DNA of 64,000 bases, from assembly GCF_009914755.1 (NCBI RefSeq), contig NC_060940.1. One strand, 5' to 3'. The stretch's first letter is position 1. Each line of letters starts with the position of its first letter. This document shows positions 53,920-62,092 of the stretch, in pieces. The DNA is from the human T2T-CHM13v2.0 reference genome, Homo sapiens. The notes beneath the pieces are model-generated. The model was not told where the DNA came from. It did not search any database and saw only the letters and a program-made list of their open reading frames with translations. The translations under genes were made by a program, and so were the position numbers.

Positions 53920-54363
<444 letters not shown>

Positions 54364-54422
54364 TGGCTTTCGCTTTTATAGGCGGTCTCATAAAATCAAC
54401 AGAATGGCCAATGCATTGGTGG

Positions 54423-54894
54423 TGAGGTAGGAGGTGGGACTTGACTCCAGAGGTGGGGCTCAAACTTCTGACCAGATTGAAGACCAGCTGAAACAAAGAA
54501 GAGACTAAAGCACCTCTCCATAAGATGCACCCACCAGTGCCATGTTAGTTTACAATTGCCATGGCAACACTCAGAAGTTACTGCCCCTTTTCATAGCAAC
54601 GACCAAAGTTACCACCCCTATTCTAGAAACTTCTGAATATCCCTTTCCTTAATTTGCATGTAATTAAAAGTGGGTATAAATATGACTGCAGCCCTGCTTC
54701 TATACTGCTACTCTGGGCATACTGCCTATGGGGTAGCCCTGCTCTGCAAGGAGCGATATCGCTGCTGCTGCTGTACACTGCTGCTTCCGTAAAAGTTGCT
54801 GACACCACTGGCTCACCCTTGAATTCTTTTCTGGGCAAAGCAAAGAACCCTCCCATGCTAAGCCCCAATTTTGGGGCTCACCTGTCCTGCATCA
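54423..54894 (+). mobile_element. ERV1 solo LTR, MER66-like
   Basis: tgaggtaggaggtgggacttgactcc...cctgtcctgcatca; TATA gggtataaata; exact TSD gtgg at 54419-54422 and 54895-54898. Confidence 0.8.
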
Positions 54895-55117
54895 GTGGGA
54901 GTTGATAGCAACCATCTCAAAATATCCTCTAAAATAAATGATAATTTGGAGATATCAGAAAATTAAACCTCATTCACAGTGGCAAGGAAGCAAAGCCATA
55001 TCAGAAGACATTCTGCAACAAAGAGAGTGACAATTTGTAAAATGTTTTCTCCCTTCCCTTTAAGCAATTCTTTGTGAGCCTATTTGACTGAAGGACTATG
55101 TTTTCTTCCAAAGTCTT

Positions 55118-55204
55118 TGTTGTTGTTAATTTGTGGACATAATGTTGTTGATTTGTGGACAAATTGTTGTTGTTAATTTGAGTTGTTAATTTGTGGACAC
55201 AATG
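55118..55204. repeat. short imperfect tandem array of ~tgttgttaatttgtggaca units
   Basis: about 3.5 irregular copies directly visible. Confidence 0.85.
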
Positions 55205-55586
55205 AGAGAGAAGAGATACTCAGCAGTGGCTCCATGTGCCCAGATCTTGCTGGGAAAGCCTCTCAGGGTCATTTTTCCTGCTGAGAGCTGAGGCTGTGGT
55301 TAGCACTGGCCCTGTTACACCTTCCCTCAATCACTTATCAGAGAGGAAAGGGCCTGACAGAACTGAACTGGGTACATGGGGAGGGAGGAGAGAGATGTAT
55401 CTTGGTAGAGAGATAGAGAGAAAGAGAAGCACAGAGAGAGAAAAAAAAAAGAAGAAGGTGGGGAAGAAATAATATGGGAGATGGAAAGAGAGGCAGAAAG
55501 TGAAAGAATAGACTCTATGCATGTGAATTACTCATGAGACAAAGACAACATGTTTATGAAAAAAGATCACAGTATGAGAGAAAACC

Positions 55587-55661
55587 TGTGTGTGTGTGCA
55601 TGTGTGGTGCGCGTGTGTGTGTGTACGTGTGTGTGTGTGTGTCCACGCACACATACACATA
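55587..55661. repeat. (TG)n then (CA)n microsatellite
   Basis: directly visible. Confidence 0.85.
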
Positions 55662-56504
55662 CAAGTCTGTCTAGAAACAGACAAGATGACAGGAAAAGAA
55701 AGCCAGAGAAGGCATGCAGAAAAGCATGCGCAAGTGAAGCGAGAAGGCTTTAGAAATTCTGTGTGTAAGCATGAGAGTGTTTGAGAGAGAGGCTGGAAAA
55801 GACTGAGTCATAGAGAGAGAGAAACCATATCAAGGAAAGTACGATGTTCCCTGAAATTGGTTCAATGAAGGAGCAATTTTCCAAAATCCAATTCACTCAG
55901 TGATTTATTCTGGAAAACTATACAATTCATCTAATTACTAAAAATCTATTTCTTTTAAATATGTATACAGTTTCTGACAATTTCCATTAAAACTACTTTT
56001 GAAGTCTGGTAAAGATTTTAGTTGATTCATTTTCATTTTGTGTTACCAATAATATTTAAGGGAGTATTTAAATGTTATTTTTGCCAGTCCTGGTCTCTTC
56101 CTAGAGAAGAAAAGATATAATGATACTCTACTGGAAAAGGGAGAAGAGAATGAGAAGGGGCAGACTGAGAAAGAAGAGGGACTGTAACAAAACAAACCAA
56201 CACAAAAAAACAGAGAGTCAGAAAGAAAAGGAGCATGAGGATCAGAGAGAAGGGATCTGAAACATCAGAAAAACGGGAGACTGATAGGCAGAGAGAGAGA
56301 GAACACTCTGGGGTAAAAAAGTAAAATAAAAACAGATCATCAACCCCATAGACCATTCCAAAGTACCCTATACAGATTCATACAAACTTTACACGTTGTA
56401 AAAAGAAATACATTGATGATAATTTAATATATTCAGAGCACTTGAAAAATTGATCACTTAGGGAAATAGTTTCTTGCAGATTTTTGTTCTTTGTTTTTGT
56501 CGAA

Positions 56505-57485
<981 letters not shown>

Positions 57486-57516
57486 TTCTCATTCTAGGCT
57501 CTCTTTCATAGAACCT

Positions 57517-57762
57517 TGCAGTGGCACAATCTTAGCTCACTGCAGCCTCTGCCTCCCAGGTTCAAGCGATTCTTGTGCCTCAGCTTCCCAAGTAGCTGGG
57601 ATTTCAGGTGTGCACCACCGCACCCAGCTAATTTTTGTACTTTTAGTAGAGAGGGGTTTTGCCAGTTGGCCAGGCTAGTCTTGAACTCCTGACCTCAAGT
57701 GATCTGCCCACCTCAGCCTCCCAAAGTGCTGGGATTACAGGCATGAGCCACCGCACCTGACC
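57517..57762 (-). mobile_element. AluS lacking its 3' end and tail
   Basis: starts abruptly at tgcagtggcacaatcttagctcac. Confidence 0.9.
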
Positions 57763-58083
57763 TATTTTCAATCTATTTTCTATTAACGATTTCAGTTTCA
57801 GCATCCACACACCATGTAGTATCATGGGAGCCATGGGTGCATACAGCTGCCCCGCGGATTTCAGGATAAATGTAGCTTCTTGTATCTCTTTTGTCACAGA
57901 GGTGTCCTCAAAAAACTTGGGATGGTGTATCGGATATTATCATATCGACCACCACCTATACTGGCGTAGACTTAATATTTTTCTAAAATGGTCTCACTCT
58001 TTTAAGTGAAAGTATCTATATTATACTATTCTATTACATCAATTCTATCTTTAATAACATAGGTGTGATATGCTAGTTATATG

Positions 58084-58148
58084 CAAAGAGCCTTGGATGG
58101 CTTCTGATTGTTTGTTGTAAGTCTGAGCTCCAGGTGCAGTCTTAGGGC
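58084..58148 (-). repeat. 65-bp inverted copy of 58692-58756
   Basis: reverse complement matches at 63/65 positions. Confidence 0.95.
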
Positions 58149-58280
58149 GGATCACCTGAGGTCAGGAGTTCGAGACTAGCCTGGCCAACATGTCAAAACC
58201 CCATCTCTACTAAAAATACAAAAATTAGCTGGGTGTAGTGGTGCACACCTGTTATCCCAGCTATTTGGGAAGCTGAGGCA
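58145..58280 (+). mobile_element. internal AluS fragment, truncated at both ends, no tail or TSD
   Basis: gggcggatcacctgaggtcagg...gggaagctgaggca. Confidence 0.9.
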
Positions 58281-59019
58281 TAATTAAAATTAATGCGTAT
58301 ATCAGGATGTTCCTAAAGATGTCCATCTGTATTCTACATTGTATCATGTCATCTTCCAATAGTGTTACATCTCTCAAATGTGGAAAGTGTAAACTCAGTG
58401 TGCTGTGCTTCACCAGCTATTCACACATCATTGTTTAAGACTCCTGGCATTTGGGTAGCACAGCAGAATTGAGATAGGACCAAGAAAATTTTCTATTTTA
58501 GGATACTATCATCATCATTACCATTACCACCACATCATAATAATCATAATTTATTGTCTATTTAGTACTTCATTAGTCATTTCTTATATTCTAGCCTGAC
58601 CCAGTTTTCAAAATAATCAGCACCTGATACCTGGTGACCCTTTCACTCCTAAGAGGGGACTTAGAGAAATGGTAGCTCCCCATGTCCTGAAGCCCCAAGA
58701 CTGCACCTGGAGCTCAGACTTACAACCAACAATCAGAAGCCATCCAAGGCTCTTTGTTCCTCTTTCCCCATGTGCCAAATGGACTGAGAATTGTACTTAT
58801 TTCATATGGTTGATATGATGATTAATTGAGTTACTATATGTAGAATATATAGACAAATGGCCTATATCTGACTTTGTTAAATAAATGGATAAACACCATA
58901 AGTATGGAGGCCTTGCCAGAGATGCTAAAGGGAGGCTATGGGATCATCGTGTAGCTGTGAGGACCATAACTGTGTGAAAATGCAGCTGTGCTCCGCTCAG
59001 AGAAGCTCGGTGTATAGAC

Positions 59020-59430
59020 TCATGTCCAGCTAACCAGACTAACCAGCTCTAGTATCGGTGATGGGTTTAGGAATGGACAATTGACCCAAGTAAGCCAAAG
59101 AAAACCTGCCTGCAGACTTAATCTTTTGATTTTGTTAATGTAAGTCTGTGGCTGCTAATGGCCATCTTTACCATTTCTTAGGGAAAGAATATTTCAACAC
59201 ACAAAAATACAGAGATTAGAGATAGAGGCAGAGATAGCGATAGAGATAGATATAGATAGATAGATGATGATGATAGATAGAGTGAGAGAGAGAGAGACTG
59301 CTGATATTTTGAGTACCAGTTAGGTGAATCAATACGTTTCTTCTGATTTTGGATGTGCCTTTTGTTGTTGTTTAAACTAGTTTAAACTGAGTTTTCTTTC
59401 ACTTCCAGATAAAATGGTCCTAATTAATGT
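59020..59430 (+). mobile_element. MLT1K/L-type LTR relic containing a (GATA)n/(GA)n microsatellite at ~59215-59298
   Basis: gatgggtttaggaatggac...ggccatctt...aaactgagttttctttcactt. Confidence 0.55.
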
Positions 59431-59507
59431 TTGTAATGTTCTTTCTTATAGCTGTGCCCTGCACAAGTTGTTCTTTTGATTTAGAATGTCTTTTCTGCCT
59501 TCTCTAA

Positions 59508-59873
<366 letters not shown>

Positions 59874-60714
59874 TAGCTGAGCTTCCCCATGATCTCCCAG
59901 TAAGACACTTCTATTCTCTGTCCAACAGCATTTTGTACAAATCATTGTGAAAGCTCTGATCACATTGTAGTATATAAATAGTATCTATATCACCCACATT
60001 AGATTGGGCCAAAGTTAGTCTTATCTGCCTTTCTAACTTTATCAAGAGTGCATTATCCATGGCGTCGTAAACACACATAGCTGTTTTTCTTCTGAATGAA
60101 TGAATGATTTTACCTAAAGCATGTACTCCAGCTAAAAGAAAGAATATTAGGGTATTAGGGGAAAGTTGGCCATGAAAGAGATTAGGGCAGCAGCACAAAA
60201 GATGGTTCCTTGCTCACCAACTTCCAGAGTCCAGTTGAGTTAACTTGACTATAAGACTCATTTGTTCTGAGGCCTCTGGCTGTAGTTTCAGAAGTGGGGA
60301 AGAATGAGCCTAGAGTGGAGAAAAAGGGAGGGTTGATGCACCTTCAGGTGTACCAGGCAGGTTTTGAAAATTCACTAACAGGAGAAAATAAAGCTCTGCG
60401 CATCCCAGCATGCCTTGCTCTTTCTGGAAAATTCTAACAAATCCACAAGAGCCTCTGCTTTTTATGAATAAAGAGCTATCTTTTAGAGTGAAAGTGCAGT
60501 CCACAATACCCGTTTACCAGCAGGTCTCGCCCTTCTGCCATCTGCAAAACAGCATTTCTGGGCTCAGAATGCAATTGGATGGATTAGTTTAACTTACTAA
60601 AGCTCGGTTCATGAGATTGTGCATTTGAATGTTATAATATAGAAAATTAATTTCTTAAGTTATTAGGACAGAAATTCAATAGGATTAATTTTCCTGGTTC
60701 AAAAATAATCAGAG

Positions 60715-60728
60715 GTCACCATGGCAAC
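60715..60728. promoter_or_regulatory. RFX X-box motif GTCACCATGGCAAC in unique sequence
   Basis: one mismatch to the palindromic GTTNCCATGGNAAC consensus. Confidence 0.4.
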
Positions 60729-61395
60729 ACACATCAATGGAGCAATACACAATGAATGAAACATTTCCAATGTTTGGCTGTTTATCAGAGGCCTCTCTCT
60801 TCCCTGTCCCTGGAGGGATTTGTTAGGATCTCTGAGGCCCCCTGGGGCTCTGCTCCTAAAATGCATAGGTCAGTGTGATTGTATCCAAGAACCACCAAGA
60901 TACAAGTTGAAGTCTAGCTTTGAAGCAGAGTTTCCTCTGGGTTAAGCCCTCATCCCCCAAGGAATGAAAGGATAAGGTTTAAAGACAATACCAGTCATTG
61001 CTCAAAATTCATGAGGTGGCTGTGGAAAGGAACCTAGCAATGGCATGGACTCAGGTCATTTACTGAGTGCCAAATGCAACTCCTTGGAAATTAGAGAAAC
61101 ACAGGCTCCGAACATACTAAGAGGGATTTTCAAGGTTGAACAGCTCTGGCTGGCTAAAACAAGAAGACCAAGGAACACTGAATCCCTTTCCCATTGGATT
61201 TTGCCTGGATTCAGCTGAGACAGGAGAAGATTTCTCTGGGTCCCAAATTCTATTTTCATGAAAGGCAGTCTATCAGAGCTATTGAAAACTTCCCTCAGCA
61301 GGAGCCAGTCTGGGCCTGAATGCTGGTTCCACCACCTTTTAAGCTTGGAAAATTTATTTCTCTGTCTGGCTCCTGATCTAATCACCCATGAAATA

Positions 61396-61397
<2 letters not shown>

Positions 61398-61436
<39 letters not shown>

Positions 61437-61446
61437 TATGTGTGTG
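61398..61446. repeat. (TG)n microsatellite
   Basis: directly visible. Confidence 0.95.
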
Positions 61447-61722
61447 AGATATCAGTTCAGTTGATAAAGATGCTGTGCAGACGCCATTAAATAATGAATG
61501 TAAAATACTTAATATAGTTCCAGGTATATGATAGGCACTTGATTTCTCTTGTTACAGAAATATAAACTCCAGGGCAAAGACATGGATTTCTCGAATTCTT
61601 GTTCTAAAGAACAGGGACTATCCAGAAAAGGTATCTTGAGGGCAGAAGGGCAGTTTATGCCTTTTACTCCAGATGTAATTTATATTTAAATTACAGAATA
61701 CAGGCATGTAATTATAGTATTA

Positions 61723-62092
<370 letters not shown>

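What the first reader, a model, noticed from the sequence alone, without database searches (positions are those of the whole stretch)
58084..58756. Composite insertion: 65-bp inverted local copy fused to a tailless Alu fragment
Seen: 58084-58148 is the reverse complement of 58692-58756 (63/65 identical, ~540 bp spacer). It runs directly into an internal Alu piece (58145-58280) through a 4-nt microhomology GGGC. The Alu has no 5' end, poly-A or TSD. Inference: a two-template patch (nearby opposite-strand DNA plus an Alu DNA/cDNA) captured at a break, i.e. endonuclease-independent 'non-classical' Alu capture combined with template switching. The result is a 65-bp inverted repeat able to form a stem in ssDNA or RNA.
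Basis: partly seen in the sequence, partly recalled or inferred. Interest (0 to 1): 0.72.

Follow-up and report, generated by a model that had tools for sequence, protein, structure and literature searches.

The report
Alu fragment copied from inverted neighbour
A roughly 195-base stretch of gene-free human chromosome 16 is made of two back-to-front pieces, one matching unique DNA just downstream and one matching an Alu repeat just upstream; it is likely the old scar of one DNA-copying slip, not a jumping-gene insertion, and this is a known kind of mutation with no sign of function.

Summary
In detail: 58084-58148 is the reverse complement of 58692-58756 (63/65) and runs through GGGC into a tailless Alu piece, 58145-58280. 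The Alu piece is most likely not a captured Alu RNA or distant Alu but an inverted copy of the neighbouring Alu (57576-57709). They differ at 12 columns, against 18 or more for each of 123 unselected Alus. They share 10 of the piece's 15 non-majority bases and form a 98/91 clade among 58 unselected competitors. Both pieces come from one strand in collinear order, and all three junctions carry 2-4 nt microhomology. Without the insert the flanks join into an AT-rich hairpin. Best reading: one old replication template-switch event (complex MMBIR-type templated insertion), roughly 20-25 million years old. Against: no primate orthologue could be checked; some distant look-alike Alus match as well, and a free tree with 29 of them did not pair the two. 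A second, younger local Alu copy turned up on chr18, hinting that some truncated Alus are DNA copies of neighbours. No gene or function is evident.

The parts
57517..57762 (-). Neighbouring older Alu (intact 5' end at 57762; lacks its last ~35 nt, tail and TSD); likely donor element
57576..57709 (-). Donor segment x of the Alu piece (match extends to 57573 with one mismatch)
   Evidence: 91.2% over 136 columns, best in window; 10 of 15 non-majority bases shared; clade 98/91
58076..58083 (+). Left flank; outer 5' arm of an AT-rich hairpin in the inferred empty site
   Evidence: in-silico join with 58279-58302 folds at -3.7 kcal/mol; 31 of 5000 random 8-mers do as well
58083..58085 (+). Junction 1: CA shared by the inferred empty site and the first copied piece (GCA repeated at junction 3)
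58084..58148 (+). Inserted piece 1: inverted copy of 58692-58756 (63/65)
58145..58148 (+). Junction 2: GGGC microhomology shared by both donors
58145..58280 (+). Inserted piece 2: internal Alu fragment, likely inverted copy of 57576-57709
58278..58283 (+). Junction 3: 3-nt microhomology, 5 of 6 nt if one mismatch is allowed
58279..58302 (+). Right flank; rest of the AT-rich hairpin of the inferred empty site
58692..58756 (+). Donor segment c of piece 1 (non-Alu, unmasked DNA)

Best explanation
The insert consists of two inverted pieces that match nearby DNA, and it likely arose in one old germline replication accident in which a stalled strand switched templates three times at short microhomologies. 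Inferred path, read left to right. (1) The new strand stalled at an AT-rich hairpin-prone site (58083). (2) It annealed through CA to the opposite strand about 475 nt ahead and copied 65 nt backwards. (3) It jumped about 790 nt along the same strand sense through GGGC into the neighbouring Alu and copied 136 nt. (4) It returned to the original site through GCA, with no evident loss of flank. The mirror path with a leftward fork gives the same product. Shown: the two matches, their strand and order, the junction microhomologies. Strongly inferred: the neighbour is the Alu donor (about 0.87 over all local-copy readings). Inferred: single event, no deletion, replication context, age of about 20-25 Myr (range about 10-40).
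For: Donor. The neighbour is the best window match, 91.2% against 86.7% for the next. It differs at 12 columns, against 18-53 for 123 of 123 unselected Alus. It shares 10 of 15 non-majority bases; weighted score 7.40 against at most 5.64 in the 123 and at most 7.34 in 29 genome-wide look-alikes. Chance under independent columns 1.2e-5, or 2.9e-4 with frequencies inflated 1.5-fold. Starred clade 98/91, in 99% of 200 bootstrap trees, against the 58 closest of 122 unselected Alus. In the reciprocal search the best non-self hits score 188, 186 and 181 bits, and the piece scores 186 against the neighbour. Shared bases and differences both spread along the whole piece, with no conversion-like patch. 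One event: both pieces come from one strand in descending order; microhomologies of 2, 4 and 3 nt; divergences 2/65 and 12/136 do not differ significantly (Fisher p=0.23). The joined flanks form a hairpin as stable as 19 of 1183 GC-matched windows; 31 of 5000 random and 6 of 312 local left 8-mers do as well. The order (downstream piece first) is the opposite of what two resected break ends each folding back on themselves would give (inference). Multi-template germline insertions are documented: 33 of 103 and 26 of 99 calls (PMC8421209).
Against: No orthologue or empty allele could be seen, so direction, deletion and timing are inferred. Some distant Alus match as well or better: 11-15 differences among 29 selected hits, and 192 bits against 185. 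Neither genome-wide list showed the partner (40 of 2433 and 40 of 3570 candidates scored). In a tree with those 29 look-alikes the pair was not joined (0% of 200 bootstrap trees); the constrained tree scored 2.29 log-likelihood units higher, p-AU 0.547, which neither rejects nor shows a clade. The fragment screen did not return this piece as 'best match local', because the sample was seeded with its look-alikes. The Alu piece is nearly three times as diverged as the 65-bp arm (8.8% against 3.1%). At 58156, a common dimorphic Alu position (44 of 123 carry the neighbour's base), piece and neighbour differ. Templates 370-510 nt away exceed the 100-bp search range of the MMB-TI study. The hairpin test was chosen after seeing the sequence.
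Confidence: 0.63

Rival explanations
1. One long template switch made an inverted copy of the whole ~1-kb stretch from 58756 back to 57573, and a later deletion at GGGC removed about 790 nt from its middle because long inverted repeats are unstable.
For: The two pieces are collinear on one strand, so the insert equals one inverted duplication with an internal gap. Hairpin-driven loss of small inverted triplications is reported in E. coli (PMC13334657).
Against: Needs a second event that left no other trace; no remnant of the skipped DNA lies in the insert. Multi-switch insertions occur directly.
Confidence: 0.15
2. Two separate local copying events hit the same site: an older copy of the neighbouring Alu and a younger 65-bp copy that replaced its front end.
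For: 8.8% against 3.1% divergence.
Against: The difference is not significant (p=0.23; p=0.51 without three CpG-type changes). The hairpin across the joined flanks suggests no loss of left flank, so the second event would have had to start at the same base.
Confidence: 0.09
3. One reading: an Alu RNA/cDNA or a distant Alu was captured at a break together with a local 65-bp patch; the likeness to the neighbour is chance or later gene conversion.
For: It has the outward marks of a non-classical Alu insertion: truncated at both ends, no tail, no TSD, extra non-Alu DNA (PMC5402677). An L1 case with a 98-bp local patch is described (NCLI48, PMC1920257). Some distant Alus match equally well, and the free tree with them did not pair piece and neighbour.
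Against: Only 2 of 139 close inverted Alu alignments reach 90%, and the other is itself a local copy. 0 of 123 unselected Alus come within 18 differences. No conversion tract is visible. The neighbour lies on the same strand and in the same order as the proven local donor.
Confidence: 0.1
4. The piece is the remnant of a full-length Alu trimmed by two deletions, or the 65-bp arms are the ends of a MITE.
For: The neighbouring Alu shows that end-trimming happens here.
Against: The arm has 2 matches in the genome, no TSD flanks the arm pair, no tail or TSD remnant exists, and the likeness to the neighbour is unexplained.
Confidence: 0.03

Closest known systems
Complex MMBIR-type templated insertions (MMB-TI, class 'complex'; PMC8421209)
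   Same: Inverted copies of nearby templates, several templates in one insert, short microhomology or microhomeology at each junction, found in the human germline.
   Different: Templates lie 370-510 nt away (that study searched 100 bp); one template is an Alu; the event is old and was read from divergence, not against a reference allele.
Short-range template switches in great apes (four-point model; PMC7954356)
   Same: Opposite-strand local copying that creates inverted repeats; AT-rich surroundings; first switch to a point ahead, so inter-strand.
   Different: Three junctions instead of two; pieces of 65 and 136 nt against a median of 12 and a maximum of 128.
Non-classical Alu insertions (NCAI; as described in PMC5402677) and non-classical L1 insertions (PMC1920257)
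   Same: Doubly truncated element, no tail, no TSD, extra non-element DNA.
   Different: Those are read as Alu or L1 transcripts patching a break; here the source is most likely the neighbouring genomic copy.
Small inverted triplications (PMC13334657) and class 2 TSIPs (PMC5110952)
   Same: Similar insert size, microhomology junctions.
   Different: No flanking direct duplications (unlike SIT); templates are local, not distant (unlike TSIP).

Membership tests
Complex MMB-TI / local templated insertion | Insert is an inverted copy of nearby DNA | tested here: met
   63/65 for piece 1; piece 2 strongly inferred
Complex MMB-TI / local templated insertion | Microhomology at the junctions | tested here: met
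   4 nt at junction 2 is direct; 2 and 3 nt at junctions 1 and 3 rest on the inferred empty site
Complex MMB-TI / local templated insertion | More than one template | tested here: met
   58692-58756 and 57576-57709
Complex MMB-TI / local templated insertion | Pre-insertion allele seen | not testable with these tools
   the genome search holds no relatives of this genome
MMBSearch call set (operational limit of PMC8421209) | First template within 100 bp | tested here: not met
Non-classical Alu insertion (NCAI) | Truncated, no poly-A tail, no TSD | tested here: met
   only a 3-nt repeat that doubles as microhomology
Non-classical Alu insertion (NCAI) | No L1 endonuclease site | tested here: met
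   by eye, the inferred site is not TTTT/A
Non-classical Alu insertion (NCAI) | Deletion at the target site (most cases) | tested here: inconclusive
   the hairpin across the join suggests none; no orthologue
Non-classical Alu insertion (NCAI) | Source is an Alu transcript rather than a local genomic copy | tested here: not met
   neighbour is the best-supported source; not fully excluded
Four-point short-range template switch | One alternate-template tract (two junctions) | tested here: not met
   three junctions; met only under the 'long copy, later deletion' rival
MITE | Multi-copy terminal inverted repeats with a TSD | tested here: not met
   2 matches in the genome; no flanking duplication; no repeat-family library was on hand
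Small inverted triplication | Direct duplications flanking the inverted piece | tested here: not met
   no such direct repeat in 55000-62000

The most novel reading that the evidence does not exclude
A sizeable, under-recognised share of truncated Alu fragments in primate genomes, including some filed as non-classical or 5'-truncated retrotranspositions, are DNA copies of an inverted neighbour within about 1 kb, made by template switching. This locus and a younger chr18 case (222/224 identical, hairpins at both junctions) are two members, the second found in under 200 kb, and neighbour-versus-genome best-match ranking would count them genome-wide.
Probability: 0.3. Interest if true: 0.55.

Novelty: new member of a known kind. 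Interest (0 to 1): 0.3.

Why it matters
The locus itself is a neutral-looking mutation scar in a gene-free region. It is useful as a clear case in which an Alu fragment with all the outward marks of endonuclease-independent retrotransposition is better explained by local DNA copying. [quoted passage not shown]

Tried and rejected
Searches for paralogues of the flanks, to see an empty site: 57764-58083 matched only itself. 58281-58900 gave itself, the arm and one 59-nt 81% hit on contig 2 that does not reach the donor segment. The composite 58030-58190 has no second full copy among 40 of 454 candidates scored. Rfam on 57400-59200 gave 5 matches, all in or beside the Alus and below gathering score. 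Tandem repeats: none at the locus. Templated origin for the truncation of the neighbouring Alu: only 2 isolated 10-mer matches within 54000-62000, none at the other flanks. Tree with selected look-alikes: unresolved. The L038 pair (8 differences in its best 136 columns) was rejected as a local copy: both are full-length elements with their own tails. Assembly artefact rejected: the copies differ from their donors at 2 and 12 positions. Two-ended break with each end folding back: rejected on piece order (inference). Literature: searches for local DNA-copied Alu fragments or micro-insertion templates returned 0 papers; others gave the context papers. The original NCAI paper (PMC2672417) is not held, so its loci and supplements were not seen and may already discuss local sources.

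Full report
Observation. The sequence and the repeat scan confirm the inverted arms 58084-58148 and 58692-58756, 543 nt apart, 63/65 complementary, with no extension. A genome search with the arm gives 2 matches, both here. In 197,980 bases (the window and 34 of 39 fetched loci; 5 that overlap the window were left out) there were 4 non-Alu inverted matches of 40 nt or more within 2 kb; this is the closest at 96.9%, the next 86.4%. The arm runs through GGGC into an Alu piece, 58145-58280, that lacks both ends, tail and TSD.

Source of the Alu piece. Its best match in the window is the minus-strand Alu just upstream: 57576-57709, 91.2%, 185 bits; the next is 86.7%. I aligned 154 Alu segments: the piece, the neighbour, 29 genome-wide top hits and 123 unselected ones. 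The piece differs from the neighbour at 12 columns, from the 123 at 18-53, and from the 29 selected hits at 11-15. Of the piece's 15 non-majority bases the neighbour shares 10, including two rare ones (58177, 5 of 123; 58271, 3 of 123), and also 58282 (6 of 123) just past the junction. The unselected mean is 3.0 and the maximum 8. The rarity-weighted score, 7.40, exceeds all 123 (maximum 5.64) and all 29 (maximum 7.34). Independent-column simulation gives 1.2e-5, or 2.9e-4 with inflated frequencies (122 background rows; subfamily linkage ignored). Against the 58 closest of 122 unselected Alus the two form a starred clade, 98/91. Of 139 inverted Alu-Alu alignments within 2 kb only 2 reach 90%; these are alignments, not all independent pairs.

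Results against. The genome-wide lists did not show the partner (40 of 2433 and 40 of 3570 candidates scored), and about 25 distant Alus outscore the neighbour in bits for the piece. A free tree of 45 rows with the 29 look-alikes did not join the pair, 0% of 200 bootstrap trees. The tree that holds them together was 2.29 log-likelihood units better, p-AU 0.547, so a clade is neither rejected nor shown there. A screen of 51 truncated segments found 2 with a local best match: the chr18 case and one uninformative 83% case. It did not include this piece, because its look-alikes were in the sample. The look-alikes were picked from the whole genome for likeness, whereas the neighbour was fixed by position, so I weigh the unselected comparison more.

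Anatomy. The order is x (57576-57709), B, c', x', D, c (58692-58756). Both inserted pieces come from the same strand in descending coordinates. Junction 2 has a 4-nt microhomology shared by both donors. If B and D were once contiguous, junction 1 has 2 nt and junction 3 has 3 nt (5 of 6 with one mismatch), and the net gain is 195 nt. Contiguity is supported, modestly and after the fact, by folding: the joined flanks give a -3.7 kcal/mol hairpin against -1.7 now, matched by 19 of 1183 GC-matched windows, 31 of 5000 random left 8-mers and 6 of 312 local ones. As single-stranded DNA the region is predicted to form the Alu-Alu stem; the 65-bp stem crosses it and is excluded from the nested fold.

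Mechanism (inferred). A strand stalled at the AT-rich site, switched to the opposite strand about 475 nt ahead, copied 65 nt, jumped about 790 nt to the neighbouring Alu, copied 136 nt and returned. A first switch to a point ahead must be inter-strand (logic of PMC7954356). Two resected ends each folding back on themselves would give x' before c', the opposite order, so a fork or sister-invasion setting fits better. A long inverted copy with a later deletion gives the same sequence and cannot be excluded. Divergence is 2/65 and 12/136 (p=0.23); without three CpG-type changes, classed by eye, it is 11/201 = 5.5% (95% interval 2.8-9.6%). With a recalled neutral rate of 1-1.5e-9 per site per year this is about 18-27 Myr, with a wide range capped by the recalled AluS age of about 35-40 Myr. 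The subfamily was not assigned by any search.

Comparison. It works like, and by the features testable here belongs with, complex multi-template germline insertions (PMC8421209: passages and section 10 part 1). It is longer and has one more junction than great-ape four-point switches (PMC7954356: passages and section 8 part 2). [quoted passage not shown] PMC1920257 (passages) weighed DNA-templated repair for L1 cases, judged it minor, and described a 98-bp local patch at one locus. It differs from class 2 TSIPs (PMC5110952: part 1 of 4), small inverted triplications (PMC13334657: passages) and large complex variants (10.1101/2024.12.19.629504: abstract and section 7). Searches found no paper on Alu fragments copied from a neighbour, but the library lacks many journals and the original NCAI paper was not held. 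No supplements were read.

Second case. Locus L023 (contig 18) holds a 224-nt 5'-truncated Alu piece, 222/224 identical to an inverted full-length Alu 835 nt away, including that element's repeat-like tail. Both junctions carry hairpins with 8-bp arms; the window background is about 1.1 per kb for arms of 7 or more. It was fetched as a top hit to the piece, and having two copies may have favoured its pick, so it gives no rate.

Verdict. A real, old, local templated insertion of a known kind. No function is indicated. Interest 0.30; the general claim about neighbour-copied Alu fragments has probability 0.3 and would merit 0.55.

Noticed in passing
L023:2582-2805 and L023:1523-1746 (G000:C18, about 13,964,267-13,965,549): A 224-nt 5'-truncated Alu piece is an inverted, 222/224 identical copy of a full-length Alu 835 nt away, with 8-bp-arm hairpins at both junctions (2566-2583, 2803-2820): likely a young local templated copy that mimics a truncated retrotransposition.
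   Followed up: partly
window 57517-57762: The donor Alu has an intact 5' end but lacks its last ~35 nt, tail and TSD; no templated source was found for that junction. It may be a separate deletion.
   Followed up: partly
window 58677-58685 and 58765-58773: A 9-bp direct repeat closely flanks the donor segment c; 68 of 63,700 window positions show the like. Unexplained: chance, or a trace of an older short insertion.
   Followed up: partly
window 57576-58756: The two inverted-repeat pairs interleave, so their stems cross; the nested fold picks the Alu-Alu stem.
   Followed up: yes
window 58777-58835; L035:1501-1559: 59-nt 81% match to contig 2, probably a decayed dispersed repeat; family not identified.
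   Followed up: no
window 55118-55204: A degenerate ~22-nt minisatellite of 3-4 copies.
   Followed up: no
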